Part shown: positions 292 to 53,990 of the stretch, in pieces
Layout of the letters: every line of letters starts with the position of its first letter
Position numbering within the stretch: position 1 is the stretch's first letter
From: a virus
Direction: 5' to 3' (one strand)
IMG/VR virus record: IMGVR_UViG_3300045988_065440
Coordinates: 17,176 to 81,175 of that record
DNA: 64,000 bases
Made by a program: the position numbers and the translations under genes
The notes under the pieces: generated by a model
The model's input: the letters and a program-made list of their open reading frames with translations, nothing else
Databases searched by the model: none
Told to the model about the DNA's origin: nothing

Positions 292-429
292 TGTAAAAAA
301 ATTTCTGTAGTCGATTATATTAAATTTGATTTCCTCCACATATATTGTTTGCATTACAGAAATAGTAATTATATCACACACAATTCTTTCTCCTGCTTTT
401 GTAATGGTGCGGAGTGGGAGAAAGATTTT

Positions 430-501
430 AGGGCTATCGCCAAGTGGTAAGGCACAGCACTTTGACTGCTGTATTCGCGGGTTCGAATCCCACTAGCCCC
501 G
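430..501 (+). tRNA. tRNA-Gln (anticodon TTG)
   Basis: Cloverleaf by eye: acceptor AGGGCTA/TAGCCCC, D arm GCC-AAGTGGTAA-GGC, anticodon arm CAGCA-CTTTGAC-TGCTG, T arm GCGGG-TTCGAAT-CCCAC. Mismatches at 1:72 and in the T stem. Close to Bacillus tRNA-Gln. Confidence 0.8.
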
Positions 502-556
502 TTTGTCGGGTTGCGCATGTACCTGGCAATGGTTTATTTCACATAGACCCTCCGAT

Positions 557-610
557 ACCCATCTAGCTCAACGGAGCTGATTAAAGGGGCTTCAAACGTC
601 CCGGATGGGA
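557..610 (+). ncRNA. tRNA-like element lacking an anticodon arm
   Basis: Acceptor-like CCCATC(558-563)/GATGGG(604-609). D-like hairpin AGCTC-AACG-GAGCT (565-578). 7-nt linker GATTAAA. T-like arm GGGGC-TTCAAAC-GTCCC (586-602, one G:U). Confidence 0.4.
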
Positions 611-680
611 TCCCCGTATAGGTGACAGCAAAACCAAAAAAGGGAGCCTTTGTTGCGACTGGCGGCAAAGAATCGCAACA

Positions 681-720
681 GTAGAAAATATGGCTTTGAG
701 GTGCTGGTAATATTTTCTAC
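681..720 (+). other. perfect 11-bp hairpin just upstream of the tRNA at 724
   Basis: GTAGAAAATAT (681-691) pairs with ATATTTTCTAC (710-720); 18-nt loop. Confidence 0.6.
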
Positions 721-723
721 TCA

Positions 724-796
724 GGAAATTTAGTTCAGTGGTTAGAACGCCCGGCTCATAACCGGGAAGTCCTGAGTTCGAATCTCAGAATTTCCA
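724..796 (+). tRNA. tRNA with CAT anticodon (Met or Ile2)
   Basis: Canonical cloverleaf: GGAAATT/AATTTCC acceptor, GTTC-AGTGGTTA-GAAC, CCCGG-CTCATAA-CCGGG, variable loop AAGTC, CTGAG-TTCGAAT-CTCAG, discriminator A. Confidence 0.9.
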
Positions 797-1105
797 TTTC
801 TTCCGTATGCTACCCATCCGTTTTATGGGAAGAAAAAACTTTCGGATGAGCGTATGTGAATCAGAATGAGCAAAGATATGTAACGGCATAGGCTTGTGTT
901 TGATCTGATTTCCCGTCCGATGAATGTTTCTTAGTTTCAATAAGCCATCACAAGCGCGCATTGATGACAAGGGAGTTTTCAAGGAACATAAAGTCAAAAG
1001 GCATAATAATATCCGAAACAACTTCGTGGGGCTGGCACGGCATAAAACAGTCTAGTGGAACGCATAACACGAAAAAATCATTGCTAACCCGGGGTTTCCG
1101 GGTTC

Positions 1106-1178
1106 AGGCAGGATAGAGAAGTGGAAACTCACAAGGTTCATATCCTTGAGAACGGCGGTTCGAATCCGCCTCCTGCAA
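1106..1178 (+). tRNA. tRNA with CAT anticodon (Met/fMet/Ile2), non-canonical D stem
   Basis: Acceptor GGCAGGA/TCCTGCA with a G1-A72 mismatch, U8, 3-bp D stem GAG/CTC, CAAGG-TTCATAT-CCTTG, variable loop AGAAC, GGCGG-TTCGAAT-CCGCC. Confidence 0.7.
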
Positions 1179-1562
1179 TTTGCCAAGAGAAACAAGGTGT
1201 TCCAGTCCTTATAACTTGGGCGGGCGGTTCAATTCCGCAAGTCGGCAGTTCCGGCAGATACTCCTCTGGCAAAAAACATTTATCCGCTTAGAGCTAAGCT
1301 ATCTGCGTACAGGCGGTCTATAGCTTATGCGGTTTGCGCATAAACGTAAACGCACAACTCACTAGGCATTTGCGTAAAAGAACTTTTTAGAGAGATGAGA
1401 CCACCGACTGTGAGAAGTGATAGTCAGTAATTCTAAAAGGGCCATCTAGTTCATGCGTTTTTACGATGGAAAGGTTATTGCTTATCTGGATATTACATCC
1501 AGTCCGAAAGCATATGAAGTGAAAATCAACTCAGTTTTTTTAACTGACCGTGACAAGCGGTA

Positions 1563-1631
1563 CGGAATGTAGCTCAGGTGGGAGAGCGCACTACAAAAGT
1601 GAGGTCGCAGGTTCGAATCCTGCCTTTCCGA
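1563..1631 (+). ncRNA. tRNA-like element with truncated anticodon arm
   Basis: Acceptor CGGAATG/CTTTCCG (1 mismatch), standard D arm GCTC-AGGTGGGA-GAGC, variable loop AGGTC, T arm GCAGG-TTCGAAT-CCTGC. Only 13 nt (CACTACAAAAGTG) sit where a 17-nt anticodon arm belongs. Confidence 0.45.
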
Positions 1632-1684
1632 TTCCTGCGGATTGCCATCGTAGGAATAAATTACTCCTAAGGTATAGTTTGGTT

Positions 1685-1735
1685 TCCAGTACTCCACGTT
1701 GGGTGGCTAGTTACGGTTCAAGTCCGTGTGCTGGA
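1685..1735 (+). ncRNA. tRNA-like element lacking an anticodon arm
   Basis: Acceptor CCAGTAC(1686-1692)/GTGCTGG(1728-1734, one G:U). D-like CCAC-GTTGG-GTGG. 5-nt linker CTAGT. T-like ACGG-TTCAAGT-CCGT. Confidence 0.4.
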
Positions 1736-1758
1736 ATTTTTGTTTAGAGAGGTGGCTT

Positions 1759-1938
1759 ATGGAAGAAAAAAATTATTGTTGTACATGTAAATGGTACGCA
1801 CTGGAAGAAGGAGTCTGCTGTAATGGTGAAAGCGAACATCGTGCAGATTTCAGATGCCTTGATGATAGTTGTGAATGTTGGGAGGGTATTGAAAATGACA
1901 GAACAAGAAGTAAAGAAAATGACAGAAGATTTATCTGA
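1759..1938 (+). CDS. small Cys-rich hypothetical protein
   Basis: ATG 1759 with a GAGAGGTGG SD. 8 Cys, including CCTC and CC pairs. First gene after the tRNA region. Confidence 0.5.
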   Translation: MEEKNYCCTCKWYALEEGVCCNGESEHRADFRCLDDSCECWEGIENDRTRSKENDRRFI

Positions 1939-5396: not shown

Positions 5397-5590
5397 AGAT
5401 TCCAGAATGTGACCATGATTTTGAAGAATGTGAGATATCCAATCCTTATAATTATGATTTTGATGAATTTAAGCCATGTGACTCTAATCAACGTTTCCAT
5501 CCGTATTATTGTAAAAAGTGCGGAATACTTATCTTGAAAAAAGTAGTTGATAATGGACGAGGAACAGACAAATTTTTGTGGGAGGAATAA
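5393..5590 (+). CDS. small Cys-rich protein
   Basis: Start overlaps the upstream stop; CDH...C...C...CKKC. Confidence 0.5.
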   Translation: MKIPECDHDFEECEISNPYNYDFDEFKPCDSNQRFHPYYCKKCGILILKKVVDNGRGTDKFLWEE

Positions 5591-5592
5591 GA

Positions 5593-6186
5593 GTGAAAAA
5601 GATACCTACATTATTTGAGCGAGAATATAAAGACCATAAGGTTGTAAAGGTTCTCCCAAAAGTGCATCCGGGCATGGAATGGGTACTTGAAGGAGAAGGG
5701 ATTGCAACAGTCAAATACGACGGCTCTTGCTGTGCAGTAATTGACGGAAAATTTTATAAACGATACGACTGCAAGAAAGGTAAAATACCACCAGAAGGAT
5801 TTATCCCTTGTTGTGAGCCAGATTCCATTACAGGTCATTGGCCGGGATGGGTAAAGGTTGACAAGAATAATCCGTCTGATAAGTGGTTTTTGAAAGCGTA
5901 TAGTTCGATAAAAGAAAATGTAACAATTTATCTAGCTGACGGAACATACGAAGCAATAGGAAAACATTTCTGCGGAAATCCGTACAATATGGATTGTGAT
6001 AAACTTGTTCAACATGGCAAAGAAATCGTTGAAGTCGAAAGAACGTTCGAGGGAATCAAGAAATATCTTTCCGAACACGAAATAGAAGGATTAGTTTTCT
6101 GGAAAGACGGAAGTCCACAATGTAAAATCAAGCGTTCAGATTTTGGCTTTGAATGGCCAGTAAGAATGAGAGGATGCACAGAATGA
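5593..6186 (+). CDS. ATP-dependent RNA/DNA ligase-like nucleotidyltransferase
   Basis: GTG 5593 after a GGGAGG SD. Motif I, KYDGS (KxDG, adenylated Lys). EGLVFW and KIKRSDF resemble ligase motifs IV/V. Small (~197 aa) stand-alone ligase. Confidence 0.6.
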   Translation: MKKIPTLFEREYKDHKVVKVLPKVHPGMEWVLEGEGIATVKYDGSCCAVIDGKFYKRYDCKKGKIPPEGFIPCCEPDSITGHWPGWVKVDKNNPSDKWFLKAYSSIKENVTIYLADGTYEAIGKHFCGNPYNMDCDKLVQHGKEIVEVERTFEGIKKYLSEHEIEGLVFWKDGSPQCKIKRSDFGFEWPVRMRGCTE

Positions 6187-6452
6187 AAAAGATAATCGTT
6201 GCAATAACAGCTTTATCACTGACGCTTGGAATGGCCGGATGCCAGTCTGCCGCAAGAAATTGCGGCGGAAACACAACATTAGAGTTGGAACCAAACCAAA
6301 AGTTAGAGGAAATTACATGGAAAAATAATTCACTATGGTATCTCACACGCCCTATGACTGATGATGATATTGCCGAGACTCATACGTTTCAGGAATCTTC
6401 CAATTTTGGAGTATTTGAGGGTAGCGTAACTGTTGTTGAAAGGAAAGAATAA
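6183..6452 (+). CDS. lipoprotein
   Basis: MKKIIVAITALSLTLGMAGC: signal peptide plus lipobox. ATGA overlap with the ligase stop. Confidence 0.65.
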   Translation: MKKIIVAITALSLTLGMAGCQSAARNCGGNTTLELEPNQKLEEITWKNNSLWYLTRPMTDDDIAETHTFQESSNFGVFEGSVTVVERKE

Positions 6453-6486
6453 ATAATTAATCAGAGAGCCAGAAAGGAGTGCCATT

Positions 6487-7689
6487 ATGAGTGACTTGAA
6501 GATATTTACAGAAAACATCGAACCAGAAGCGTTAAATCAGATTTATACATTGATAAAACAGCCTGCATTTTCCGAATGCAAAGTACGAATCATGCCAGAT
6601 GTTCACGCAGGGGCAGGATGTGTAATTGGTTTTACTGCCGATCTCGGAGATAAAGTAATCCCGAACATTGTTGGCGTAGACATTGGATGTGGAATGCTTA
6701 CAACACAAATTCCTGCTGACGTTGGAACAATAGATTTTAAAATTCTCGACGAAGTAATAAGAAACAATGTTCCGTCAGGAAGAAACGTACGTGACAAAAT
6801 CATAAATTTTGAAGAATTAGAAGAACTTCATTGTTTTTCTCGACTCAAAAATATTGAATGGATTCGCAGGAGCCTTGGTACACTTGGGGGCGGAAATCAT
6901 TTCATTGAAGTTGACACTGATTCGAAAGGATTAAATTATCTTGTAATCCACACTGGGAGTCGGAATCTCGGGAAACAAGTAGCTGAAATATATCAAAAAA
7001 TTGCCATAGAAGACATGCAAGGTACAGACAAGCTCGAAACTGAAATACAAAAATTGGTGAAAGAATACAAGCGTTCTGGCAGACGCAAGGAAATCCAACA
7101 TGGTATTGACGAATTAAAACGAAAATGGAAGCCAGACAAACTGGGTATTCCGAAAGAATTGTGTTACTTGACAGGAGAACACAGAAAACAATATCTGCAT
7201 GATATGAAAATCTGTCAAGAATTTGCAAGAATAAACAGACGATGTATACAGAGCACTATATTTTACACTATGAATTGGACGTTCCAAAGAAACACATGGT
7301 TTGATACAATTCATAATTATATTGACCACGATACAAACATTGTTCGTAAAGGGGCAATATCAGCTAGACATGGCGAAAAAGTTCTTATCCCAATGAATAT
7401 GCGAGATGGATGCATTATTGCAGTTGGGAAAGGAAACGATGATTGGAACTGTTCGGCCCCGCATGGTGCAGGACGCATTATGAGCCGGTCAAAAGCAAAA
7501 GAAAACATCTCGTTAGAAGAATTTAAGGAGTCTATGGATGGGATATACACAACATCCGTTCAGAAATCCACAATTGATGAAAGCCCTATGGCCTACAAAC
7601 CACCGCAAGAAATTATTGATAACATCAAAGATACTGTAGAAATAGTTGATATTATCAAACCTATATATAACTTCAAAGCAAGTGAATAA
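6487..7689 (+). CDS. rtcB: RtcB-family RNA 3'-phosphate/5'-OH ligase
   Basis: Hallmark motifs MPDVHAGAG, GVDIGCGM, GGGNHFIE, HTGSRNLG and SAPHGAGR (His nucleophile). 400 aa. Confidence 0.9.
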   Translation: MSDLKIFTENIEPEALNQIYTLIKQPAFSECKVRIMPDVHAGAGCVIGFTADLGDKVIPNIVGVDIGCGMLTTQIPADVGTIDFKILDEVIRNNVPSGRNVRDKIINFEELEELHCFSRLKNIEWIRRSLGTLGGGNHFIEVDTDSKGLNYLVIHTGSRNLGKQVAEIYQKIAIEDMQGTDKLETEIQKLVKEYKRSGRRKEIQHGIDELKRKWKPDKLGIPKELCYLTGEHRKQYLHDMKICQEFARINRRCIQSTIFYTMNWTFQRNTWFDTIHNYIDHDTNIVRKGAISARHGEKVLIPMNMRDGCIIAVGKGNDDWNCSAPHGAGRIMSRSKAKENISLEEFKESMDGIYTTSVQKSTIDESPMAYKPPQEIIDNIKDTVEIVDIIKPIYNFKASE

Positions 7690-7754: not shown

Positions 7755-9491
7755 ATGCAAAAATTCACAGAAGGTTCGATTGAATGGTATCGGGCAATTT
7801 TAAATCAAATCATTAATGATGATATGACGGTCTGTCAAAATCAGAAGGACTGCCTTGATTTACTTTTGAATATGAATATTGACCTTCCTTTCAAGGATAA
7901 TCCAGATGCACGGAATATGGCAATGAAAGTCAGTCGGTACGCTCATACAACTGCGGCAAGAAACGCGGCACTGACTGGAAGCGGTAATTTTGATGATATT
8001 TACTGGCAGTATTTATTGTTGGAAGCACAGAACTATCAGGTTGACAGCGGGCTTCTTTACCTTGAAAAGAACCGAATCCCGAAAGAACGATTCTACGAAC
8101 CACGAAGAAATGTGTTCTTGCAGCATAACATCATAGGTTCACTGCAAGACCTGATGGATGATAAATTAGATATATTTGCATTAAGCGTACCTCCGGGTTG
8201 TGGCAAGAGCACTCTGGAAGATTTCTTTTTATCATTGGTAGGTGGATGGTTCCCGAATGACTTTAACCTGTCTTCGGCACACAGTAGCATTTTGACACGT
8301 TCCCTTTATGATGGTGTTCTGGAAATTATCAATGATCCCGTGGAATACACGTGGCATGAGATATTCCCTAACGTAGAAATTCAAGGAACAAATGCAAAGG
8401 AAACTACAGTCAATCTCGAAAGAAACGGACGATTTAAGACATGGACATTTCGTTCTATTGATGGCTCTTTGACTGGTGCCACTAGATGCAATAGATTCCT
8501 TACTGCCGATGACCTTGTGTCTGGTATTGAAGAAGCTTTGAATAAGAACCGACTTGATACCTTATGGACAAAAGTGGTAAATGACTTGCGTTCCCGTAGA
8601 CTTGAGGGATGCAAAGAATTTTATATTGCCACCAGATGGTCAGTACATGACCCTATCGGAAAACTGCAACAACTATATGCCGGAAACCCACGGGCAAGGT
8701 TTATTGCAGTTCCAGCACTTGATGAAAACGGAAAGAGTAATTTTCTGTTTACGGTAAATGGATTCTCAGAGAAATATTTCAATGATGCTAAAGAATCCAT
8801 GGATGAAATTTCTTACAACTGTCTTTATCAGCAACAGCCGGTAGAACGTGAGGGATTATTATTACCGCCGGATAAATTAAAACGATTCTTTTTCAGTAAA
8901 GAAGACGTGCCGGATGGATGCGCGGATGAATACATCATCATTCCAGATAAAAATGCAGATGCAATATGGGCGATATGCGATACAAAAGATAAAGGAACCG
9001 ACTTCGAATCATTACCGATTGCATACCAATACGGAGATAAATTTTTCTTTCCTGATGTGGTGTTTGATGACACTACAGACTATGACATTTTGGATAGAAA
9101 GACAGCAGATATTTTGATAAGACATAACCCACATAAGATTCGTTTCGAATCAAATAATGTCGGAAACCGTGTGGCACACAATATCCAGAAAATGATTACC
9201 GGAAAGTGCCGAGCTGAAATTGAGACAAAACCAACGTCAGCAAATAAAGAAACAAAGATTCTTGTAAATTCGGACTATATAGCAAAACATTTTTATTTTC
9301 TGCATCCAAGTCAGTACAAAGTAAAGTCTGATTACGGATTATTTATGGCTAATGTAACTACGTACACTACTAGGGCAAAAGTACCACATGATGACGGAAT
9401 CGACTCTTTGGCTATGATGGTTGAGTACATACAAAATCCATTAGGTGGTAAAGCAACGGCAATGCAGAATCCATTTTGGGGAAGGAGATAG
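7755..9491 (+). CDS. terL: terminase large subunit
   Basis: 578 aa. Walker-A-like SVPPGCGKST. Lies upstream of portal, scaffold and capsid genes. Confidence 0.85.
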   Translation: MQKFTEGSIEWYRAILNQIINDDMTVCQNQKDCLDLLLNMNIDLPFKDNPDARNMAMKVSRYAHTTAARNAALTGSGNFDDIYWQYLLLEAQNYQVDSGLLYLEKNRIPKERFYEPRRNVFLQHNIIGSLQDLMDDKLDIFALSVPPGCGKSTLEDFFLSLVGGWFPNDFNLSSAHSSILTRSLYDGVLEIINDPVEYTWHEIFPNVEIQGTNAKETTVNLERNGRFKTWTFRSIDGSLTGATRCNRFLTADDLVSGIEEALNKNRLDTLWTKVVNDLRSRRLEGCKEFYIATRWSVHDPIGKLQQLYAGNPRARFIAVPALDENGKSNFLFTVNGFSEKYFNDAKESMDEISYNCLYQQQPVEREGLLLPPDKLKRFFFSKEDVPDGCADEYIIIPDKNADAIWAICDTKDKGTDFESLPIAYQYGDKFFFPDVVFDDTTDYDILDRKTADILIRHNPHKIRFESNNVGNRVAHNIQKMITGKCRAEIETKPTSANKETKILVNSDYIAKHFYFLHPSQYKVKSDYGLFMANVTTYTTRAKVPHDDGIDSLAMMVEYIQNPLGGKATAMQNPFWGRR

Positions 9492-10031: not shown

Positions 10032-11519
10032 GTGGGAAGAAACAAAAGTAATTTTGTTGACCTATGCCAAGGCGATTTTGGCAGAAAAACTGCCTACACT
10101 GGCGTAGCTCAAATTACTACCGAAAATGTTGTTCAAGTTCTATCTGATACGATTGGTACACATAATCGAAACAGAATGATGATTAATTATCTTTATCGGT
10201 ACTACAAAGGCGACCAACCAATCTTATATCGGGAAAAGCTTGTGAGACCGGAAGTAAATAACAGAGTTGTCGAAAATCACGCTCTGGAAGTTGTCAAGTT
10301 TAAGGCAGGGCAAATATATGGAGAACCTATTCAATATGTCTGCAAAAAGAAAAAAGCAGATAAAAAGATAAATGAACAGGTTGATCTGCTAAATGATTAT
10401 TTGGACGAAGCAAATGCAGATGCCCGAAATATCCAACTTGGAATATACCAGAGTGCCGTAGGAACTGCATACAAGACAATTTTACGAGAAGACGATTGGA
10501 CAAAAGACCGTGATTTACCACCATTTAGAATTTTTATTCCGTATCCGGGAGATGTTTATATTGTTTATTCCAGAAACACAGGAAAAGCAATGCTATCTGT
10601 TCAAATATTGAAAGATGAAGATAATCAGCAATATTATCTTTGTTATTCTTCAAATCAATATTTCAAGATAAAGAACGGACAAGTAACCGTCAGCGGCATT
10701 AATGGATTTGGCGGAATCCCAATTATCGAGTATCCAAACAACCATGACCGGCTATCTGATGTCGAAATTGCAATTACAGCATTTGATGCGATCAACAAGT
10801 ATCAGTCGGATAGATTAAACGGTGTTGAACAGTTTGTTCAAGCATTTATGAAATTCAAAAACTGTGAAGTTGACGAGAATGAATTTTTGAAAATGGTCAA
10901 GCTAGGAGCAATATCTGTAAAAGATGCTGGAAACGGCGTTCAGTCAGATGTTGACTTGATGACTGCGGAATTAAACCAATCGGAGAGCCAAGTTGCTAAA
11001 GATGATATTTACAACAATATGCTGATCGTGGAAGCAATGCCAAACCGCCAAAGCAACACCGGAGGTGATACTGGTAACGCAGTATATCTACGTAATGGAT
11101 GGGATTTCGCAGAACGAGATGCAAAACTTGTCGAAGCATTCACAAAAGAAGCGGAAAAAGCATCTGTCAGAATTATCCTCAGCATCATTCGCAAAACCTC
11201 CAATGATGTCAAGATTTCTACCAGAGATTTTGATGTCAAAATAACCAGAAACCCGACAGATAATATGCTTGTTAAAGCACAGGCACTTGATTATCTGTTC
11301 AAAAATAAAATTCACCCACTTATTGCATTGATCACTTGTGGATTATTCAGTGATCCGCAAAAGGTATATGAAATGAGCTTACCATATCTTGGAACTGTTT
11401 ATCCTGAACTGGCAAACCCAGACGAAGAATTGAAGAAAGCACAAGAATTGATTAAAGATTTTAGTCAGAAATCAATTCAAAATCAATCAGCAACAATTTC
11501 TTCCACTGATGAAGAATAA
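10032..11519 (+). CDS. portal protein (SPP1 gp6-like)
   Basis: 495 aa. GTG start with a TAGGAGG SD. Position after terL. YYKGDQPIL-type N-terminal region. Confidence 0.8.
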   Translation: MGRNKSNFVDLCQGDFGRKTAYTGVAQITTENVVQVLSDTIGTHNRNRMMINYLYRYYKGDQPILYREKLVRPEVNNRVVENHALEVVKFKAGQIYGEPIQYVCKKKKADKKINEQVDLLNDYLDEANADARNIQLGIYQSAVGTAYKTILREDDWTKDRDLPPFRIFIPYPGDVYIVYSRNTGKAMLSVQILKDEDNQQYYLCYSSNQYFKIKNGQVTVSGINGFGGIPIIEYPNNHDRLSDVEIAITAFDAINKYQSDRLNGVEQFVQAFMKFKNCEVDENEFLKMVKLGAISVKDAGNGVQSDVDLMTAELNQSESQVAKDDIYNNMLIVEAMPNRQSNTGGDTGNAVYLRNGWDFAERDAKLVEAFTKEAEKASVRIILSIIRKTSNDVKISTRDFDVKITRNPTDNMLVKAQALDYLFKNKIHPLIALITCGLFSDPQKVYEMSLPYLGTVYPELANPDEELKKAQELIKDFSQKSIQNQSATISSTDEE

Positions 11520-23685: not shown

Positions 23686-26600
23686 ATGGCCGATAATACC
23701 ATAGATACCCTCAATATACAAATAGAGAGTAGTTCTTCCAGAGCTGTTCAATCTATCAACGACCTTATTAAAAAGCTAGATGTATTGAATAAATCTTTGA
23801 ATGGCATTAATACTGGTGGGTTGAGAAATTATGCTAAAGAGCTTGGGCGAGTTACCGTTGCTTTCAGTTCTCTTGGAAATGTCAATACGTCTGGCTTAGA
23901 TCGTACCATAGCAAAACTGAATGCTCTCAGCAAAATCAACCTGAGTAATCTGCAAAATCAGAAAATAAGTCTTGACCTCGAAATTAAAGGTGGAGATCAG
24001 ACGCAAAAATTGCAGTACGCCATCGACAAAACCATTCGAGATATAAAAGTTGACACATCATCATTATCTGAACAACTCATTAAGTCATTTGACCTTAAAG
24101 GTGGGGCGGCGGCTAAAATTCGCGCTCAGATGAATGATCTGTCCAAAGCTATGGCAAGCTCTTATGACGGAACAGATATGTCTGTAAAACTCAACGATAC
24201 GCTTAACAGTATTGCTAATACTATTATCAAAAGCGGAAGTGTTGTTAAGGGAAATTTAGGATCATATCTTGATGGTGCTGAACAGGAATGGATTGATTTC
24301 TATAATTTCTTTAAGAATAAAAGAATTTATGTTTCTGACATGCTCAAAGCAGATGTCGGAAACGGTGAATTCAATAGCTTACTGAAGGAAAATTTGAGCA
24401 ATATTGTGCGTGATGCCGCGAAAGGAATAAATCTCAATGAATCATGGGGAGAACTGGCAGACAGATTTCCTACTTTGATTCCTAAAGATACAATCAATGC
24501 CGCAGATCAGCTGATTGCTGTCCTTGAAAATCTTAAAAAAGTAAGAGATTCTATTAAGCCTGTTTCAATTCAAGACCTTACCGGCAAGGATTCAGCTATG
24601 GCATCAGATAAGGCATGGGGGTTCAGCACAGACGCATACAATCAATTAGCCGAAAGTGTAAAGAAACGCATCGAAAGTGCTTTAAGTACCGCAAATGGAG
24701 AACTCCCGGTTGATGTAAAAATCAATACAGATAAAATTGTCCTTGATATTCAGAAAGCAATCAATAAAGCGGCAGACCTGAAATACAATACTGTCAATGT
24801 AACTCTGGATGCAGATGTTACGACAGTAAAAGACGCAATCACAAAGAAATTAAAAGATATTGATGCCGGAGAAATGACTGATTTATCTACCAGCATGTCA
24901 AAATTTGCAACCTCTCTCCGCGATCTGGGAAGTGTGAATTTCAAAGGGACTGGATTGAACGCAGTGATTAATTCCATTAATCGTCTTGGAAAATCCGATT
25001 TCAGTCAGTTTGATACAGGGAAATTGGGTGAAATTCTTACTGAGATGCAGAAACTTGATACTATTCCAGACGTTTCTCCGAGCGTTAGCCGGTTCACAAC
25101 CGCTATAGCTAAACTTGCCGACACAGGACAGTATATCGGCAATGTATCAAAGGAACTTCCGAATCTTGCGACAGGTTTAAATAATACGGCTGCTAAATTA
25201 AGCTCTATGAGCGAGGTATCAGCATCCACCAATGCTTTTATTACTTCTCTTGGAAAATTAGCTAGTGCAGGAGATAAAACTGGAAAGACTGCAAGCCAAT
25301 TATCAACTCTTGCACAAGAGGTTTTGAAGTTTTTTGACGCAATGAAAAGCGCACCAGATATCAGCTCAAGCACAATAAGAATGACAGAAGCTCTTGCAGT
25401 ATTAGCATCGTCTGGAAGCAAAGTAGGGCGTGCTACAAATAGCGTTTCGAATTCATTTAACACGCTTTCTTCGTTAGGTTCGAAAGCAAATACTGTAATC
25501 CATGGGTTGACAAATGCTTTTCAAAAATTTGCTTCAAAAGCTATTTCTTTAGGCGGAAAAGCCGTATCTGCAATCGCAGGTATTGGAAATGCATCTTCTG
25601 AAGCCGGCGAAAAAATAAGAAGATTGTCAAATCCTCTGAGTTCGGTAACGAATAAGTTGAGCGCTCTTTACGCCAAAGGTTTCCTCGCAAAAAGGGCATT
25701 AGATGTTCTGACATCGCCAGTAGAATCCGCAATGAACTATGTAGAGACCCTGAATTACTTCAACTCTGCATTCAATCAGGTGGCAGAAGGGATCGACACT
25801 GACGAATGGAAGAAAAGTGGTATAAAATCTGCTGAAGCATATGCAAATTCATTCCAAGAAAGAGCAAAACAGCTTTCGCAGAAACTGACAGGATTCGAAG
25901 TGTCAGATACTGGTGAACTGGCTAGAACCAATACCGCCAGTCTTGGACTTGACCCAGAAAAGACTATGCAGTATCAGGCAACATTTGCGCAGATGGCATC
26001 ATCTATGGGCGATACATCAGAGACTGCATTAAAATTGTCTAATGCACTCACTATGATTGGTGCAGACCTTGCATCTGTAAGAAATATGGACTTTGAAGAT
26101 GTATGGCAGGACATGGCATCCGGCTTGACTGGTATGAGCCGCGCTATGGATAAGTACGGAATTAATATCCGTAATGCCAACATGCAACAGGAACTGTATA
26201 ATCTTGGAATTAATACCAGCATATCGAATTTGTCTCAGGCAGATAAAACGATTCTAAGAACGATTATCTTGCTGAACAACTCTAAGTATGCGTGGGCTGA
26301 TTTATCAAACACGATCAATCAACCGGCAAATCAAATTCGTATGTTGCAAGCTAACTTTGCATCCCTTGGTAGAACAATAGGTTCCTTATTCATTCCTATA
26401 CTGCAAACAGTTCTTCCGTATATCAATGCAATCGTAATCGCATTACAAAGAATGTTTGCTTATATTGCAAAATTGCTTGGAATCAAACTGTCAAACTTTG
26501 TATCATCTACTGGTGGTATTTCTGTAGATACTGGAGATATTGCAGATAATATGGATAATGCCAGTGGTGCGATTGACAATGCCAATACCAGCGCAAAAAA

Positions 26601-29400
26601 ACTCGAAAAAACATTGTCAGTCCTTGCGTTTGACCAACTGAATCAGCTTAATGACAATTCTGATTCTGGTAGTACAAGTAATCCATCTTCTGGCTCTGGC
26701 GGTGGCGCATCACATCTTCCAGCGCTTGATGCTGCATTAGATGATGCTTTGTCTGCATATCAAAAAGCATGGGACGAAGCTTTTAAAAAGATGTCCAACA
26801 GGGCAAATGAAATGGCAGATGCCATTGTAAATGCCTTTAAAAGAAAAGACTGGAAAGGTCTTGGAAAAATCATGGCTGATGGCATCAACTGGGGGATGCA
26901 AAAGCTTTATGATTTCATTAACTGGAATAATGTAGGCCCTTACATCACTAAATTCACCAGTGCGTTCACCCAGACTTTCAACAGCCTTGTTGATAATATC
27001 AACTGGGATTTGATGGGACGTACCGTTGGAGCTGGTATTAATACAATAGTTAATACAGCCAATCAGTTACTTGAGGGAACGAATTTCAAAAACCTTGGCA
27101 AGAAATTTGCAGAAGGTATTACAGGCTTAGTTCGTGAAGTTGATTGGACTAATTTTGGAAACATGCTTGGGAACAATTTTATGAAAGCATGGGATGTGTT
27201 TACGGGATTTGTCGAAAACCTTCCATATAGCGAAATTGGTCAGTCTGTAGCAACTGGATTAAATGGAATCTTTGAGAAAGTAGACTTTGGAGAAATAGCA
27301 CATGCGCTTGCAACAGGTTTAAACGGAGCTTTTGATTCGTTAGATGCGTTTACAGAAACATTCGACTGGAATGAACTGGTTGATAATATTACAAATGGTA
27401 TTGTGACATTCATGCAGGAATTTGACTGGAAAGAGAATGGACAGAAACTTGAAAATTTTATCAATCATCTCTTAACATCATTAATTGACATCGCAGAAGG
27501 TGTTGATTGGGAAGCGTTTGGACACAATGTAGGCGTATTCCTCAGTGAAATTGACTGGGGAAAACATCTTGCACAGTTACTTACGGTTATCGGAGATGTT
27601 CTTGGTGGAATCTGGAAAGGACTTGGAACAACATCTGCTGGCACATTTGTTCAGGCAATGGCTGTTTTTGCTATTGGTGACAAATTAATGCCACTCGTTG
27701 ACACAATTACCAAATTCTTTACAGGCGATACTGTTTTTGGAAATCTTTCTAAAGCTGTACGAGGTATGCTGAGTCCCGCAATCACAGAAGCTGTATCAAC
27801 AACTATTCCGGCTCTTGGGACATCGTTAGGTTCACTTGTTGCAACCGGTGGTGGAATTGCTCTTGCAGTAGGTGGTGCAGTATTACTTACCAAGAAATTA
27901 GCAGGACTTTTTGAGACCATGCAGGGCGGTAATGGAATGACTACACAGTATGGTGGTTATCTCCATGATTACGCAACGCAGCTTACCAATGTAGCAAATC
28001 TTACAAACGATCAATCGGAAGCGTTGTGGCAGTTGATTGAAAAGGACGAAGAGCTTGGAAAAACTCACGATGAAATGTACTCTGATATGGTTAGCAAACT
28101 TTCTGAGTATGGTGTTTCAGCAGAGCAAGCTAGAACAGCTCTTGAGCAATACGGAGCGCAAGCAGGTGTATCGGCTGAATTTGTTGAAGGCATGACCGAT
28201 CAAATTTCTGCTCTTGGAGAAGGTGTATCTGAAGCTGCAAGTAAATTTGATACATCAAAAATAAGTGTCGATAATTTGAAGGCTACTCTGTACGCATTGA
28301 GTCTTTCTTCTACAGAATTCGGAAGTAATTATACGACGGCATGGAATGCAATAAGCGAAGTACCTTATAGCAACACAAAAGATGCATTAGACGCGGTCTA
28401 CACTTCTCTCAAAAACGCAGGTGTTCCACTTGACGAACTTGATAAGAAGTTAAGAGAAGATTTTCCAGAAGCAACTGTAGCTACTAAATCAGCAGTAGAC
28501 AAGAATATTGTTGGAGCGCAGCAGACTATTTCAACATCAGTTGGACAAGCATCTAAAGATACAAAGACAGCCACAAATGAAATGGCAAAAAATGCCACAG
28601 ATGATTTCTCGGAAATTCAGAAACAAGCCGATACTTACATGAAAGGCATGGAAAGCACAACTACTAGCTCATGGGGCAACTCTTCCAGAGAAGCTACATT
28701 GAAAGCCAGGGAAATGAAGAATGCCGTAAGCACAGAACTCGGGAACATGGACAAATCTGTAACAAGCCATTTCCAAAGTCAGTACAACATTGCTTATAAG
28801 AAATGGGAGAATATCGGAAGAGATATTTCTTCCTACATTTCAAAGGACATGAACAACAAAATTGGCAGTTCCTTGAACAGTGTTGTAGATACAATCAAGA
28901 GCAAGTTTGCCGGGTTGTATAATGTCGGCAAAAATGCAATGCAAGAACTGTCAAACGGCATGAAATCTGTCCATATCAGTACACCGCATATGTGGATGAA
29001 CATGAACGCTTCCACAAGCGGAAACCACTATTCCTACAACTGGAATTCTGGTGTAAATTGGTATGCAAAAGGTGGTTTGTTCAAAAATGCATCTGTCATT
29101 GGCGTAGGTGAAGCAGGGCAGGAAGCCGTTCTTCCTTTGGAAAATCGTAAAGCCATGAAATCCATTGCTGACAGTATCATGTCCGGCTATGACGGTAACA
29201 TGGGACTTACGAAAGATGAGATCATGGAAGCTGTCGAGCGTGGCGTAGTTACTGCTTTGATGAACAATGGTGGCTTTGGCGGTTCCTCACCAGAATACAT
29301 TATGAACAGCATCAAAGTGAATGAGCGTGAACTGGCACGAATCGTCACAAAAGCGCAAAATAATACAGATTACCGCATGAATCCGTCACCTGTGTATTGA
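23686..29400 (+). CDS. tail tape measure protein
   Basis: 1904 aa, alpha-helical and repetitive, with hydrophobic segments. AAGGAGG SD. Canonical position. Confidence 0.9.
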   Translation: MADNTIDTLNIQIESSSSRAVQSINDLIKKLDVLNKSLNGINTGGLRNYAKELGRVTVAFSSLGNVNTSGLDRTIAKLNALSKINLSNLQNQKISLDLEIKGGDQTQKLQYAIDKTIRDIKVDTSSLSEQLIKSFDLKGGAAAKIRAQMNDLSKAMASSYDGTDMSVKLNDTLNSIANTIIKSGSVVKGNLGSYLDGAEQEWIDFYNFFKNKRIYVSDMLKADVGNGEFNSLLKENLSNIVRDAAKGINLNESWGELADRFPTLIPKDTINAADQLIAVLENLKKVRDSIKPVSIQDLTGKDSAMASDKAWGFSTDAYNQLAESVKKRIESALSTANGELPVDVKINTDKIVLDIQKAINKAADLKYNTVNVTLDADVTTVKDAITKKLKDIDAGEMTDLSTSMSKFATSLRDLGSVNFKGTGLNAVINSINRLGKSDFSQFDTGKLGEILTEMQKLDTIPDVSPSVSRFTTAIAKLADTGQYIGNVSKELPNLATGLNNTAAKLSSMSEVSASTNAFITSLGKLASAGDKTGKTASQLSTLAQEVLKFFDAMKSAPDISSSTIRMTEALAVLASSGSKVGRATNSVSNSFNTLSSLGSKANTVIHGLTNAFQKFASKAISLGGKAVSAIAGIGNASSEAGEKIRRLSNPLSSVTNKLSALYAKGFLAKRALDVLTSPVESAMNYVETLNYFNSAFNQVAEGIDTDEWKKSGIKSAEAYANSFQERAKQLSQKLTGFEVSDTGELARTNTASLGLDPEKTMQYQATFAQMASSMGDTSETALKLSNALTMIGADLASVRNMDFEDVWQDMASGLTGMSRAMDKYGINIRNANMQQELYNLGINTSISNLSQADKTILRTIILLNNSKYAWADLSNTINQPANQIRMLQANFASLGRTIGSLFIPILQTVLPYINAIVIALQRMFAYIAKLLGIKLSNFVSSTGGISVDTGDIADNMDNASGAIDNANTSAKKLEKTLSVLAFDQLNQLNDNSDSGSTSNPSSGSGGGASHLPALDAALDDALSAYQKAWDEAFKKMSNRANEMADAIVNAFKRKDWKGLGKIMADGINWGMQKLYDFINWNNVGPYITKFTSAFTQTFNSLVDNINWDLMGRTVGAGINTIVNTANQLLEGTNFKNLGKKFAEGITGLVREVDWTNFGNMLGNNFMKAWDVFTGFVENLPYSEIGQSVATGLNGIFEKVDFGEIAHALATGLNGAFDSLDAFTETFDWNELVDNITNGIVTFMQEFDWKENGQKLENFINHLLTSLIDIAEGVDWEAFGHNVGVFLSEIDWGKHLAQLLTVIGDVLGGIWKGLGTTSAGTFVQAMAVFAIGDKLMPLVDTITKFFTGDTVFGNLSKAVRGMLSPAITEAVSTTIPALGTSLGSLVATGGGIALAVGGAVLLTKKLAGLFETMQGGNGMTTQYGGYLHDYATQLTNVANLTNDQSEALWQLIEKDEELGKTHDEMYSDMVSKLSEYGVSAEQARTALEQYGAQAGVSAEFVEGMTDQISALGEGVSEAASKFDTSKISVDNLKATLYALSLSSTEFGSNYTTAWNAISEVPYSNTKDALDAVYTSLKNAGVPLDELDKKLREDFPEATVATKSAVDKNIVGAQQTISTSVGQASKDTKTATNEMAKNATDDFSEIQKQADTYMKGMESTTTSSWGNSSREATLKAREMKNAVSTELGNMDKSVTSHFQSQYNIAYKKWENIGRDISSYISKDMNNKIGSSLNSVVDTIKSKFAGLYNVGKNAMQELSNGMKSVHISTPHMWMNMNASTSGNHYSYNWNSGVNWYAKGGLFKNASVIGVGEAGQEAVLPLENRKAMKSIADSIMSGYDGNMGLTKDEIMEAVERGVVTALMNNGGFGGSSPEYIMNSIKVNERELARIVTKAQNNTDYRMNPSPVY

Positions 29401-29511: not shown

Positions 29512-29626
29512 TTTGGTAAAACCAACAGGCTAGACCGATCATCGAAAAGCGGAAATGCCTTGCCGCCTGCCTGTTGATTTACATACATTTCAAGGCATCT
29601 TTTATACGAAAGGCAGGTATTTTTTT
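29512..29626 (+). ncRNA. structured leader, copy 1 (riboswitch-like or cis-regulatory)
   Basis: TTTGGTAAAACCA block. P1 CAACAGGC (29523-29530)/GCCTGTTG (29569-29576). ATGCCTTG (29555-29562)/CAAGGCAT (29591-29598). Alternative helix CCTGCCT (29566-29572)/AGGCAGG (29611-29617) followed by a T-run. Confidence 0.45.
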
Positions 29627-30097
29627 ATGAAATTCAAAGAACAATCAAAAAGTCTCAATATTCCAATATCAAGAGAACCTATTATCTACTTTCTTCTGGA
29701 CGGAGATGAAGTGGTTTATGTTGGGCAATCCCGATTGGGACTTTTTCGTCCGTACAGTCATGCAAATAAACATTTTACTTCGGTTTCTGTTATTAAATGT
29801 CAACTAGAAGAACTGGATTCTTTGGAGATTTTTTATATCAGAAAATATTTACCAAAATACAATCAAAAACTTGTTGACGATAAGCATGAGTTCTCTTTTG
29901 GAAAAGTAAGAAGAATAATAAGAGATCAAACAGATTTTAAAAATTGTACTGTTTTTCATATAAGGAAAATGGTAAAAATTATGAAAATAAATACTTTTTC
30001 TATTCAAGATACTTTTTACATGGCATCTGATGATGCGGAAAAAATAATTGATTATGTAAATTCTCATTATGACGGTCACGAATTAAAAGTATCGTAA
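29627..30097 (+). CDS. GIY-YIG nuclease (free-standing homing-endonuclease-like)
   Basis: IIYFLLDGDEVVYVGQS...R..YSH...E...YI..Y.PKYN matches the GIY-YIG core. ATG 29627. Confidence 0.65.
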   Translation: MKFKEQSKSLNIPISREPIIYFLLDGDEVVYVGQSRLGLFRPYSHANKHFTSVSVIKCQLEELDSLEIFYIRKYLPKYNQKLVDDKHEFSFGKVRRIIRDQTDFKNCTVFHIRKMVKIMKINTFSIQDTFYMASDDAEKIIDYVNSHYDGHELKVS

Positions 30098-30098: not shown

Positions 30099-30229
30099 TT
30101 TGGTAAAACCAGTAGGCTAGGGTAGCTCCCGAAAAGTGTAAACCTTGATGCACCTGCCTGCTGTTTTTATAAATCAAGGATTCTGGCATATTACGGAGAT
30201 GCCAACGACCAACAAGGAGGTTATCTATT
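30099..30229 (+). ncRNA. structured leader, copy 2
   Basis: Same TTTGGTAAAACCA, AGGCTAG, CGAAAAG and CCTGCCTG blocks. P1 CAGTAGGC (30110-30117)/GCCTGCTG (30156-30163) with a compensatory A:U to G:C change. CCTTGAT (30143-30149)/ATCAAGG (30173-30179). Confidence 0.45.
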
Positions 30230-39940: not shown

Positions 39941-40188
39941 AGTAATCACCTTCCGTTTATCGCCTACGCTTCAACTTTCATCAGATTATCCTCATCTAAT
40001 CAATTAATTATGGTAATATAGTAGCACTGAAACGGAAATGTGTAAATAGTTCAGCAGAAGTTCGAAAAAAATCGACATCTTAATACGTTGGTACAGCCTG
40101 CCAGATTACTCTGGGGAGGAGATGTGATCGTGAATGCAGGTTTTGCCATAAAAAGAGCCGGGGAGTAAAATCCTCGGCTCGTTGCTGT

Positions 40189-53968: not shown

Positions 53969-53990
53969 TTTTCACAGGTTATGCACTGCG

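What the first reader, a model, noticed from the sequence alone, without database searches (positions are those of the whole stretch)
292..1750. ORF-free tRNA cluster mixing 3 canonical tRNAs with T-loop elements that lack or truncate the anticodon arm
There are three canonical tRNAs: Gln-TTG (430-501), CAT (724-796) and a second CAT tRNA with a G1-A72 mismatch (1106-1178). Beside them are elements with an acceptor-like helix, a D-like hairpin and a T arm with a TTCRANY loop. In these, the anticodon arm is replaced by a 5-7-nt linker (557-610, 1685-1735) or shortened to 13 nt (1563-1631). The intervening sequence is dense in perfect hairpins: 681-720 (11 bp), 1086-1104 (AACCCGG/CCGGGTT), TTATGCG/CGCATAA near 1325-1343 and CTGGAT/ATCCAG near 1486-1502. 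The recurrence of the same architecture argues against random decay. Possible roles are RNase P/Z punctuation marks, decoys for tRNA-targeting defences, or substrates for the phage ligases at 5593-7689.
Basis: partly seen in the sequence, partly recalled or inferred. Interest (0 to 1): 0.65.

Follow-up and report, generated by a model that had tools for sequence, protein, structure and literature searches.

The report
Anticodon-less tRNA-like RNAs in phage tRNA array
A gut phage's tRNA cluster holds two small RNA genes shaped like the top half of a tRNA with no anticodon arm; related phages keep them through compensating mutations, so they are selected RNAs that cannot decode and probably serve as cutting signals or tRNA mimics.

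Summary
Window 292-1750 is a non-coding RNA array at the head of an operon that runs into an RNA ligase, RtcB and the terminase. The phage is about 80 kb, from the human gut, with a probable Gram-positive host.

The array holds three real tRNAs: Gln-UUG, CAU, and a CAU tRNA with a 1:72 mismatch like an initiator. It also holds two tRNA-like RNAs with no anticodon arm (elA 558-610, elC 1685-1736) and one tRNA with a 13-nt anticodon arm (elB 1563-1631).

- **elA and elC are not decayed tRNAs.** No relative has an intact tRNA at either position. Their helices keep pairing through two-sided changes: elA 14 of 17 pairs across two phage clades, elC 6 of 16. elA is as conserved as the real tRNAs.
- **What they keep.** The 7+5-bp acceptor/T-stem stack, an unpaired discriminator and a U-first trailer.
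- **elC position.** In 79 of 103 contexts it sits 20-25 nt before the first ORF's start codon.
- **elB is different.** It is a rare allele of a slot that holds full tRNAs in most relatives.

Best reading: these are processing modules cut out by RNase P and RNase Z, like plant mitochondrial t-elements. A second role as tRNA mimics is possible. Expression is untested. No Rfam family matches elA or elC.

The parts
370..377 (+). Candidate promoter element TATATCAC, upstream of the array
   Evidence: TA[TA]ATCAC lies 37-60 nt upstream of tRNA-Gln in 63 of 89 unique related arrays. The sigma-70 scan did not call it. Function is inferred.
385..425 (+). Leader hairpin ending 4 nt before tRNA-Gln, with loop UAAUGGUGCG
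   Evidence: MFE -20.6 kcal/mol, z -5.9. The loop is conserved (entropy 0.6-0.8 bits) while the stem sequence differs in the other clade.
430..501 (+). tRNA-Gln (UUG)
   Evidence: Rfam tRNA 57.3 bits and ARAGORN. Present in nearly all related arrays.
558..610 (+). elA, an armless tRNA-like RNA. It has a 7-bp closing (acceptor) stem ending in U.G, a 5-bp D-like hairpin, the linker GAUUAAA, a 5-bp T-like stem with loop UUCAAAC, and discriminator A.
   Evidence: The MFE fold equals this structure, z -3.0. No Rfam hit. More than 114 IMG/VR loci carry it. Four alleles in clade 1 and compact forms in the Dulem-virus-39 clade. 98.3% of cells paired and 14 of 17 pairs changed on both sides. Entropy 0.35-0.7 bits against 1.1-1.6 in spacers.
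651..680 (+). Conserved hairpin UGUUGCGA / UCGCAACA with 14-nt loop CUGGCGGCAAAGAA, preceded by CCUUUG
   Evidence: 8-bp perfect stem. Entropy 0.2-0.45 bits, as low as the tRNAs. Stem changes are compensatory in relatives, and the module recurs in clade 2 locus L269.
680..721 (+).
   Evidence: The sequence is not conserved (entropy about 1.2 bits), but a hairpin at this spot is.
724..796 (+). tRNA with anticodon CAU (elongator Met or Ile2 type)
   Evidence: Rfam 75.6 bits and ARAGORN.
1086..1104 (+). Hairpin AACCCGG-N5-CCGGGUU, 2 nt before tRNA CAU-2
   Evidence: The same stem with different loops occurs in relatives.
1107..1178 (+). tRNA CAU with a G1.A72 mismatch (initiator-like)
   Evidence: Rfam 57.1 bits with 1:72 flagged. 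In the relatives' sequences I read the 1:72 pair as always mismatched (G.A, C.A, C.U, A.A).
1193..1238 (+). Partial tRNA remnant: an anticodon-arm-like hairpin with a 9-nt loop plus the T arm GGCGG-UUCAAUU-CCGC, with no acceptor pairing
   Evidence: Read from the sequence. The fold is not better than shuffles (z -0.26). Similar sequence occurs in only 15 related loci. The T arm matches a variant of the CAU-2 family.
1295..1343 (+). Two overlapping perfect hairpins, 1295-1327 and 1325-1343
1486..1502 (+). Hairpin CUGGAU-AUUAC-AUCCAG
   Evidence: Read from the sequence. Its 6-bp stem is below the 7-bp cut.
1563..1631 (+). elB, a tRNA body with a U6.U67 mismatch and a 13-nt anticodon arm (3-bp stem CAC/GUG, loop UACAAAA)
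   Evidence: Rfam 48.7 bits with four anticodon-stem columns deleted. About 13 of 306 loci carry this form, on two different bodies. The same slot holds full-length tRNAs in most relatives.
1685..1736 (+). elC, an armless tRNA-like RNA. It has a 7-bp acceptor stem, 2 nt, a 4-bp D stem with loop GUUGG, a 5-nt linker, a 5-bp T stem with loop UUCAAGU, and discriminator A.
   Evidence: MFE fold z -2.3. No Rfam hit. Present in 78 of 80 RtcB-anchored loci. 99.6% paired, with 6 of 16 pairs changed on both sides in all three helices. Both loops are nearly invariant. Not found outside clade 1.
1737..1762 (+). U-tract, Shine-Dalgarno sequence and start codon (ATG at 1760) of the first ORF after the array
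   Evidence: The trailer starts with TTT in all 103 unique elC contexts. A start codon preceded by a Shine-Dalgarno sequence lies 20-25 nt downstream in 79 of them, whatever the ORF.
5578..7689 (+). Context: RNA ligase (5578-6186), a 99-aa ORF (6153-6452) and RtcB (6487-7689) in the same + strand gene block
   Evidence: phrog_14301 RNA ligase 1e-57. RtcB Pfam 1.4e-63 and phrog_1075 1.2e-131. A link to the RNA elements is not shown.

Best explanation
Region 292-1750 is the RNA-only head of a + strand operon. It is most likely transcribed as one precursor that continues into the downstream ORFs. No room for a promoter is left between elC and the first start codon.

elA and elC are selected, structured RNAs. 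They keep the parts of a tRNA that the end-processing enzymes read:
- a 7-bp acceptor stem stacked directly on a 5-bp T stem (12 bp in all);
- a T-type loop with a small D-like partner hairpin;
- an unpaired discriminator followed by U.

They have lost the part the ribosome reads.

**Proposed mechanism.** Host RNase P cuts at their 5' ends and RNase Z cuts after the discriminator, as for the neighbouring CCA-less tRNAs.
- This dices the precursor into discrete RNAs.
- For elC it also creates the 5' end of the downstream mRNA, about 22 nt before its start codon.
- The excised RNAs, about 52 nt, probably receive CCA. They may persist as tRNA look-alikes that cannot decode and have a second role in trans.

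**Shown:** sequence, fold, conservation, covariation and fixed position.
**Inferred:** transcription, cleavage by RNase P and Z, CCA addition and any role in trans.

elB is a separate case. It is a low-frequency variant of a swappable tRNA cassette and cannot decode normally. Its status, decaying or functional, is open.
For: **Structure under selection.**
- elA: 98.3% of cells paired, 14 of 17 pairs changed on both sides, 0 of 500 shuffles reach the score, and slid controls fall to 29-47% paired (clade 1 alone).
- elC: 99.6% paired, 6 of 16 pairs changed on both sides in all three helices.

**Conservation.** elA entropy is 0.35-0.7 bits, like the tRNAs (0.05-0.6) and unlike the spacers (1.1-1.6).

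**Geometry.**
- In every allele the closing stem is 7 bp, the T stem is 5 bp, and no base lies between them.
- This holds even in the compact clade-2 form, whose D hairpin is only 3 bp.
- Terminal pairs and the discriminator vary freely: the 1:72-equivalent pair takes all four Watson-Crick types, and the discriminator is A, U, C or G. That fits recognition by shape rather than by sequence.

**Same flanks as the real tRNAs.** All six units are followed directly by T.

**Position.**
- elC is in 78 of 80 RtcB-anchored loci.
- It is always the last RNA unit before the ORFs.
- TTT follows it in all 103 contexts, and a start codon with Shine-Dalgarno sequence follows at 20-25 nt in 79 of them, even when the downstream gene differs.

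**Precedent.** Plant mitochondrial t-elements are non-canonical tRNA-like structures that direct RNase P and RNase Z to form mRNA ends (PMC1920247).

**From memory.** RNase P, RNase Z and the CCA-adding enzyme accept acceptor/T-arm minihelices. B. subtilis RNase Z cuts CCA-less precursors after the discriminator, usually before a U.
Against: - There are no expression or end-mapping data.
- Punctuation alone does not explain why elA is needed between two tRNAs that are processed anyway.
- It also does not explain why elA's internal junction is invariant across two clades: the U7.G wobble, the A8-U pair, the UUAA(A) linker and the loop N-U-C-A-N-A-N. That pattern suggests a specific binding partner.
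- Four of 80 related phages have a clean deletion of elA, so it is dispensable in some genomes.
- In clade 2 the T-type loop is GUCACAA, which is not a canonical tRNA T-loop. The likeness to tRNA is therefore weaker there.
- Leader hairpins that end 1-4 nt before the tRNA 5' ends are not what a simple RNase P substrate would be expected to carry.
Confidence: 0.45

Rival explanations
1. **tRNA mimics acting in trans.** After maturation, elA and elC (and perhaps elB) act as anticodon-less tRNA look-alikes. They could bind a factor that reads the tRNA body, such as a host tRNA-directed defence nuclease or sensor. They could also act as a Y-RNA-like partner of the phage's RtcB/RNA-ligase repair module. 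Having no normal anticodon loop, they could not be cut there.
For: - The invariant internal core of elA across two clades points to a specific partner.
- The phage carries an RNA ligase and RtcB a few kb downstream.
- Relatives show other tRNA-like RNAs with crippled anticodon arms: 3-bp stems and 5-nt loops.
- Relatives carry the same tRNA bodies with swapped anticodons.
- 59 of 226 related loci carry a DUF2828+vWA protein in the array. In 55 loci a tRNA-like RNA with an insert of about 65 nt in the anticodon position is present; in L001 it lies upstream of that gene.
- Phage tRNAs are known to evade anticodon nucleases (PMC10264068, listed).
- ROT/TROVE proteins with tRNA-like partners occur with RNA ligases in phages (PMC7824862).
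Against: - No partner has been identified.
- The well-studied anticodon nucleases mostly recognise the anticodon loop itself (from memory), which these RNAs lack.
- Decoys against multiple-turnover enzymes need high abundance, and abundance is unknown.
- The window has no TROVE/DUF2828 gene.
Confidence: 0.25
2. **elC as a cis-acting element.** The closing stem plus the U-tract would work as a branched intrinsic terminator or attenuator between the RNA array and the ORFs. Alternatively it would form a structured 5' end that protects the downstream mRNA from 5'-end-dependent decay.
For: - The U4-9 tract follows the closing helix directly in all 103 contexts.
- The distance to the start codon is fixed.
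- elC is the most universal unit of the array.
Against: - The terminator scan did not call it.
- The helix closes a three-way junction about 50 nt wide, which is atypical for an intrinsic terminator.
- The conserved D-like and T-like loops are not needed for termination.
- This idea does not explain elA.
Confidence: 0.12
3. **Decaying tRNA pseudogenes.** The odd elements would have no function of their own and would be kept by chance or by linkage.
For: - For elB: it is rare (about 13 of 306 loci) and sits where relatives have intact tRNAs.
- Sporadic armless or truncated tRNA-like sequences appear in only 1-3 loci each in the sister clade.
- The remnant at 1193-1238 looks like plain decay.
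- elA is deleted in 4 of 80 relatives.
Against: - For elA and elC: there are compensatory changes in every helix.
- elA's conservation equals that of the real tRNAs.
- They are present in nearly all members, and elA in two clades whose portal proteins share only 42% identity.
- No intact tRNA counterpart exists anywhere in about 300 loci.
- For elB: the same 13-nt arm occurs on two bodies with different acceptor and T stems.
Confidence: 0.05
4. **Aminoacylated carriers.** The elements would be charged by a synthetase that does not need the anticodon and would feed a non-ribosomal aminoacyl transfer.
For: - The top-half architecture (acceptor, D and T arms) is what some synthetases accept. From memory, E. 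coli LeuRS charges minimal RNAs that lack the anticodon and variable arms.
- The 3' end would be free after CCA addition.
Against: - The discriminator and the first pairs vary freely among alleles, which argues against a fixed synthetase identity.
- There is no G3.U70.
- The 28 larger ORFs scanned against Pfam gave no aminoacyl-transferase hit; most small ORFs were scanned only against PHROGs or not at all.
Confidence: 0.03
5. **Not tRNA-derived.** elA would be a small three-way-junction RNA motif, a protein-binding site or an aptamer, that merely resembles a tRNA top half.
For: - In clade 2 the loop is GUCACAA and the D hairpin is only 3 bp.
- The loop register shared by all alleles is N-UCANA-N. 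This is a T-loop-type pentaloop shifted by one base from the tRNA register.
Against: - The 7+5-bp stack with no junction bases, the free discriminator and the U trailer copy tRNA geometry.
- It sits inside a tRNA array on the same strand.
- The clade-1 loop UUCAAAY is a canonical T-loop.
Confidence: 0.1

Closest known systems
Plant mitochondrial t-elements (Forner et al. 2007, PMC1920247)
   Same: - Non-canonical tRNA-like structures inside polycistronic transcripts.
- They lie next to mRNA ends and are proposed, and partly shown, to direct RNase P and RNase Z cuts.
- The excised element can be a stable RNA with added C or CCA.
- elC sits before an ORF in the way the cox1 t-element does.
   Different: - Organelle versus phage.
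- The t-elements are described as dispersed tRNA-like sequences. Here two defined families are kept by covariation across hundreds of phage genomes, and cleavage is untested.
Bacterial Y RNAs of the YrlA type (Chen et al. 2014, PMC4201824)
   Same: - Non-decoding RNAs that mimic the D arm, T arm and acceptor stem.
- Substrates of tRNA enzymes.
- Genetically linked to RtcB-type RNA repair, and also found in phages.
   Different: - In YrlA the 5' and 3' ends form a Ro-binding stem, the T arm comes before the D arm, and the 'acceptor' is a closed stem-loop.
- Here the order is D then T, the acceptor ends are free, there is no GNCGAAN0-1G motif and the window has no Ro/TROVE gene.
- Nothing in 250-1800 matched a Y RNA family in Rfam.
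tRNA-like domain of tmRNA
   Same: An acceptor stem and T arm without an anticodon arm, processed by RNase P.
   Different: - tmRNA has a G3.U70 alanine identity pair, a tag reading frame and pseudoknots (from memory).
- ARAGORN finds no tmRNA, and pair 3:70 here is C-G.
mascRNA (from MALAT1), and the P1/P7 C4 and P4 CI RNAs (from memory)
   Same: Small RNAs or transcript ends generated because a tRNA-like fold recruits RNase P, and RNase Z in the case of mascRNA.
   Different: - mascRNA keeps a cloverleaf with an anticodon-like arm.
- C4 and CI are antisense regulators.
- None is part of a tRNA array, and no sequence relation is known.
Stable RNAs 'species 1 and 2' of the phage T4 tRNA cluster (from memory)
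   Same: Non-tRNA stable RNAs encoded and processed within a phage tRNA gene cluster, with function still unknown.
   Different: Different size and fold, no relation shown, and not compared here.
Canonical tRNA (Rfam RF00005)
   Same: - Acceptor stem, T arm, D-like hairpin, discriminator.
- Position inside a tRNA array.
   Different: - elA and elC have no anticodon arm at all and score below any Rfam threshold.
- elB has an anticodon stem of only 3 bp.

Membership tests
tRNA (RF00005) | Reaches the family's gathering score (29 bits) | tested here: not met
   elA and elC give no tRNA match even at E<=10. Met for 430-501, 724-796, 1107-1178 and also for elB (48.7 bits).
tRNA (RF00005) | Anticodon arm with a 5-bp stem and a 7-nt loop | tested here: not met
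   In elA it is replaced by a 7-nt linker and in elC by a 5-nt linker. elB has a 3-bp stem, with four model columns deleted.
tRNA (RF00005) | 7-bp acceptor stem contiguous with a 5-bp T stem, a 7-nt T loop and a single discriminator | tested here: met
   Alignment counts for elA and elC. The MFE fold agrees exactly for elA; for elC it shifts one pair (8-bp acceptor, 4-bp T stem).
YrlA / bacterial Y RNA | Encoded next to a Ro60/TROVE gene | tested here: not met
   tblastn of the DUF2828+vWA protein of L001 against the window gave nothing below E = 2. No TROVE hit among the window proteins scanned.
YrlA / bacterial Y RNA | 5' and 3' ends form the Ro-binding stem with the GNCGAAN0-1G motif | tested here: not met
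   The motif is absent on both strands of 292-1750. The ends form an acceptor-type stem instead.
YrlA / bacterial Y RNA | Permuted order: T arm, closed acceptor-like stem-loop, D arm (PMC4201824) | tested here: not met
   The order here is D-like hairpin then T arm, as in tRNA.
tmRNA | Detected by ARAGORN with a tag peptide; G3.U70 | tested here: not met
   No tmRNA in the window. Pair 3 is C-G in elA and elC.
t-element-like processing signal | Non-canonical tRNA-like fold inside a longer transcript, next to an mRNA end | tested here: met
   Fold and position of elC, 20-25 nt before the start codon in 79 of 103 contexts. That it lies within one transcript is inferred.
t-element-like processing signal | Cleavage by RNase P at the 5' end and RNase Z at the 3' end | not testable with these tools
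   No read data are available. Only indirect signs exist: the 12-bp stack and the U after the discriminator.
Intrinsic terminator | Short G+C-rich hairpin followed directly by a U-run | tested here: inconclusive
   The scan calls none at elC, but the tool models simple hairpins only. The U-run itself is present.

The most novel reading that the evidence does not exclude
elA and elC would be a new class of phage-encoded 'tRNA top-half' RNAs. They would be matured by RNase P, RNase Z and the CCA-adding enzyme. They would then act in trans as anticodon-less tRNA mimics. One possibility is an uncleavable decoy or inhibitor of a host immune factor directed at tRNA. Another is a Y-RNA-like cofactor of the phage's own RtcB/RNA-ligase repair module. 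Either way they would belong to a wider tRNA-centred counter-defence island that also swaps anticodons on fixed tRNA bodies.
Probability: 0.22. Interest if true: 0.85.

Novelty: new variant of a known kind. Interest (0 to 1): 0.62.

Why it matters
**A gap in annotation.** tRNA finders and Rfam do not see these genes, so phage tRNA arrays are annotated as if the spacers were empty. Here two conserved RNA families lie in those spacers in a very abundant group of human-gut phages. More than 350 IMG/VR contigs carry the linked RtcB.

**If they are processing signals.** This would show that phages use the t-element trick known from organelles to shape a mixed tRNA-mRNA operon.

**If they act in trans.** They would add a new kind of player, an anticodon-less tRNA mimic, to the contest between phage tRNAs and RNA repair on one side and host tRNA-cutting defences on the other.

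**Ready for experiments.** The compact, covarying structures give clean mutants to test, and natural elA-deletion variants already exist.

Tried and rejected
- **Rfam.** The permissive search of 250-1800 found no family besides tRNA. The other matches are tRNA-antisense plastid models and chance hits.
- **GenBank phages.** Only two unannotated fecal scaffolds (MT838485, MT838775) share more than single tRNAs with the region.
- **Bacterial genomes.** Degenerate elA and elC patterns give 0 matches in GTDB species genomes. So there is no sign of a cellular or prophage source, and no direct host call.
- **YrlA / Y RNA.** Rejected on topology, motif and the missing Ro gene.
- **Hammerhead-like core.** elA's GCUGAUUAAAG resembles CUGAUGA...GAAA. 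I rejected it because the essential G8 is U and clade 2 reads CUGUUAAG (by eye).
- **attP-type tRNA 3' fragment.** Rejected because both acceptor strands are present and covary.
- **Alternative hairpin at 648-670.** The MFE fold is not kept in relatives, while the 651-680 hairpin is.
- **The window's retroelement as the source of anticodon variation.** The diversity-generating retroelement lies 52 kb away and its repeats match protein genes only. No link was found.
- **elC outside its clade.** The covariance model finds only T-arm fragments there.
- **Published catalogue.** Supplementary data of the 10,006-candidate phage RNA catalogue (PMC10690425) are not held. I could not check whether these motifs are already listed.
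- **Unused.** The metagenome scan was not run.
Full report
**1. What the window is**

The 64-kb window is most of the genome of an uncultivated tailed phage from the human gut.
- It has an SPP1-type portal (10032-11519), a terminase (7755-9491), an RtcB RNA ligase (6487-7689) and a second RNA ligase (5578-6186).
- It also has a CHAP+SH3 lysin, RecT, SSB and a DNA methylase.
- The nearest named relatives by portal protein are Dulem virus 39 (42% identity) and Clostridium phage Maintenon (34%). This, together with the lysin type, points to a Gram-positive host.
- IMG/VR holds hundreds of close relatives of 40-85 kb.

**2. Check of the observation**

- ARAGORN and the Rfam tRNA model find Gln-UUG (430-501), CAU (724-796) and CAU with a non-standard G1.A72 (1107-1178).
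- They also find 1563-1631, here called elB. Its anticodon arm is only CAC-UACAAAA-GUG.

The two armless elements are at 558-610 (elA) and 1685-1736 (elC).
- Rfam does not detect them even at E<=10.
- RNAfold returns the described architecture as the minimum-energy structure of elA (z -3.0). For elC (z -2.3) it shifts one pair: an 8-bp acceptor stem and a 4-bp T stem. The 7+5 reading of elC rests on the pair counts.
- A strict descriptor asked for a 7-bp acceptor, at most 38 nt, then a 5-bp T arm. It finds only these two in the window. In 2.98 Mb of related loci, nearly all hits are these two families or short-arm tRNAs. Shuffles of the first 1.3 Mb gave 3 hits.

The four named hairpins exist. 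Perfect hairpins are only modestly enriched: 5 against 1.5 +/- 1.1 in shuffles. No credible ORF is present.

**3. Comparative anatomy of the array**

In 55 unique related arrays the layout is a mosaic.
- Constant units: Gln, elA, CAU-1 and elC.
- Variable units:
  - a Tyr tRNA present or absent between the two CAU tRNAs;
  - a slot before elC that holds different cassettes;
  - an optional 2-kb insertion encoding a DUF2828+vWA protein.
- Several tRNA bodies recur with different anticodons: CAU/CCU/UCU, UGA/UCA/CCA, and UGU or shortened arms.

elB is one allele of the 'GGAAUG' body.
- Most relatives carry a full-length UGU version.
- The 13-nt arm form is in about 13 of 306 loci, on two bodies that differ in acceptor and T stems.
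- elB is therefore a rare variant cassette, and its function is an open question.

**4. elA and elC are under selection for structure**

elA:
- Clade 1 has four alleles whose terminal pair takes all four Watson-Crick forms.
- A covariance model, then a motif search, found compact versions in 11 loci of the Dulem-virus-39 clade, including Dulem virus 39 itself.
- Over 15 distinct sequences, 98.3% of cells pair and 14 of 17 pairs show two-sided changes. No shuffle of 500 reaches the covariation score, and sliding the partners drops pairing to 29-47%.
- Invariant features:
  - the U.G pair that closes the acceptor stem;
  - the adjacent A-U pair;
  - the UUAA(A) linker;
  - the loop register N-U-C-A-N-A-N.

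elC:
- It has two clade-1 lineages with two-sided changes in all three helices (6 of 16 pairs, 99.6% paired). Its loops GUUGG and UUCAAGU are nearly invariant.
- It was not found outside clade 1.

Conservation and presence:
- Along Gln to CAU-1, column entropy is 1.1-1.6 bits in spacers, 0.05-0.6 in the tRNAs and 0.35-0.7 in elA.
- No related locus has an intact tRNA in place of elA or elC.
- Four of 80 relatives have a clean deletion of elA.
- elC is present in 78 of 80.

**5. What the anatomy says about mechanism**

- Every allele keeps a 7-bp closing stem joined without a gap to a 5-bp stem, one unpaired discriminator, and a trailer that begins with U. The four tRNA-model matches in the array share this trailer, so all six units have it.
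- The D-like hairpin ranges from 3 to 5 bp and the linker from 4 to 7 nt. The end pairs and the discriminator are free to vary.
- This is the pattern expected if the RNA is read by shape, by enzymes that measure the 12-bp acceptor/T stack. RNase P, RNase Z and the CCA-adding enzyme work this way (established knowledge, from memory).
- It is not the pattern expected for a synthetase identity set.
- elC is always the last RNA unit. TTT follows in all 103 unique contexts, and a start codon with a Shine-Dalgarno sequence follows 20-25 nt downstream in 79 of them, whichever ORF comes next. Cutting after the discriminator would therefore produce a short, defined mRNA leader.
- The closest documented parallel is the plant mitochondrial t-element.
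- I take this processing role as the best-supported mechanism, with confidence of about 0.45.

**6. What this does not explain**

- Punctuation does not require elA between two tRNAs.
- It does not explain elA's invariant internal core across two clades.
- Together with the RtcB/RNA-ligase genes and the many crippled-anticodon tRNA look-alikes in relatives, this keeps a trans-acting tRNA-mimic role alive. That role could be a decoy or a repair cofactor (about 0.2-0.25).
- A role of elC as attenuator or 5' stabiliser is also possible (about 0.1).
- Plain pseudogene decay is excluded for elA and elC. It is not excluded for elB or for the remnant at 1193-1238.

**7. Comparison with known families**

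- Not tRNAs: there is no anticodon arm and no Rfam match.
- Not YrlA-type Y RNAs: the topology is wrong, there is no Ro-binding motif, and the window has no Ro gene.
- Not tmRNA.
- They work most like t-elements and like other RNase P-dependent tRNA-like RNAs.
- No Rfam family covers them. A large 2023 catalogue of phage RNA candidates mentions tRNA-like motifs, but I could not check it for these sequences.

**8. Verdict**

- elA and elC are real, selected, phage-specific tRNA-like RNA genes without an anticodon arm. They are a new variant of a known kind.
- The mechanism is inferred, not shown. The missing piece is RNA end mapping.

Noticed in passing
window 52381-55183: A diversity-generating retroelement. 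It has an Avd-like protein (53594-53968), an A-rich template repeat (about 53995-54068) and a reverse transcriptase (54164-55183). Variable repeats lie at the 3' ends of two ORFs: 52874-52947 in ORF 52381-52986, and 53514-53581 in the DUF6273 ORF 52983-53597.
   Followed up: partly
related loci, e.g. L013, L029, L076 (clade 1) and L227-L306 (clade 2): The same tRNA body occurs with different anticodons among close relatives: UGA/UCA/CCA, CAU/CCU/UCU, and in the sister clade GUU/AUU/UAU/AAU/UUA/UAC. These include anticodons that would read the UGA and UAA stop codons.
   Followed up: partly
L001 1568-1692 and 1933-3393, and 59 of 226 related loci: An optional cassette inside the tRNA array encodes a DUF2828+DUF7788/vWA protein. 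In 55 loci a tRNA-like RNA is present that has a normal acceptor, D and T arms and an insert of about 65 nt in place of the anticodon arm; in L001 it lies upstream of the gene. Its acceptor stem covaries. It is a candidate protein/tRNA-like RNA pair, and it is absent from the window.
   Followed up: partly
related loci, e.g. L119 (- strand, from position 352), L190 6823, L155 6700: Another tRNA-like class occurs in about 25 loci. By eye it has a 5-bp anticodon-type stem that covaries (CAGAG/CUCUG, CAGGG/CCCUG, CAAAG/CUUUG). Its loop is shorter than the usual 7 nt: 5 nt in most variants.
   Followed up: no
window 385-425, 680-721, 1086-1104 and the equivalent sites in relatives: Most tRNAs of these arrays are preceded by a stable hairpin that ends 1-4 nt before the tRNA 5' end. 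For example, the 45 nt upstream of Gln fold at -17.6 kcal/mol against -8.5 in shuffles. The meaning for processing or for the stability of spacer RNAs is unknown.
   Followed up: partly
window 645-680: The module CCUUUG plus hairpin UGUUGCGA-CUGGCGGCAAAGAA-UCGCAACA is as conserved as the tRNAs. Its stem covaries, and it recurs in a clade-2 locus (L269). With elA it may form part of one larger RNA released between tRNA-Gln and tRNA CAU-1.
   Followed up: partly
window 1107-1178 and its family in relatives: Reading the relatives' sequences, the 1:72 pair of this tRNA family is always mismatched (G.A, C.A, C.U, A.A), as in bacterial initiator tRNA. Some relatives carry CCU or UCU instead of CAU on this body.
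   Followed up: no
window 29523-29595 and 30110-30179: Two matches to the Rfam int-alpA RNA motif (45.4 and 55.3 bits) flank ORF 29555-30097, just after the 1904-aa ORF at 23686-29400.
   Followed up: no
window 45217-45513: A tandem array with a 27-nt period, about 11 units, inside overlapping ORFs near 44877-45549.
   Followed up: no
window 55762-56529: A metallo-beta-lactamase-fold protein whose N-terminal motif weakly matches RNase Z models (41.9 bits against a cut-off of 293). This is too weak to call it an RNase Z.
   Followed up: no
window 39242-39949 (- strand): A response regulator with a LytTR DNA-binding domain is encoded by the phage.
   Followed up: no
four of the RtcB-anchored loci L145-L224 (ids not printed): Four of 80 relatives have lost elA by a clean deletion of about 53 nt, with both flanks intact. 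These are natural knock-outs for a future test.
   Followed up: partly
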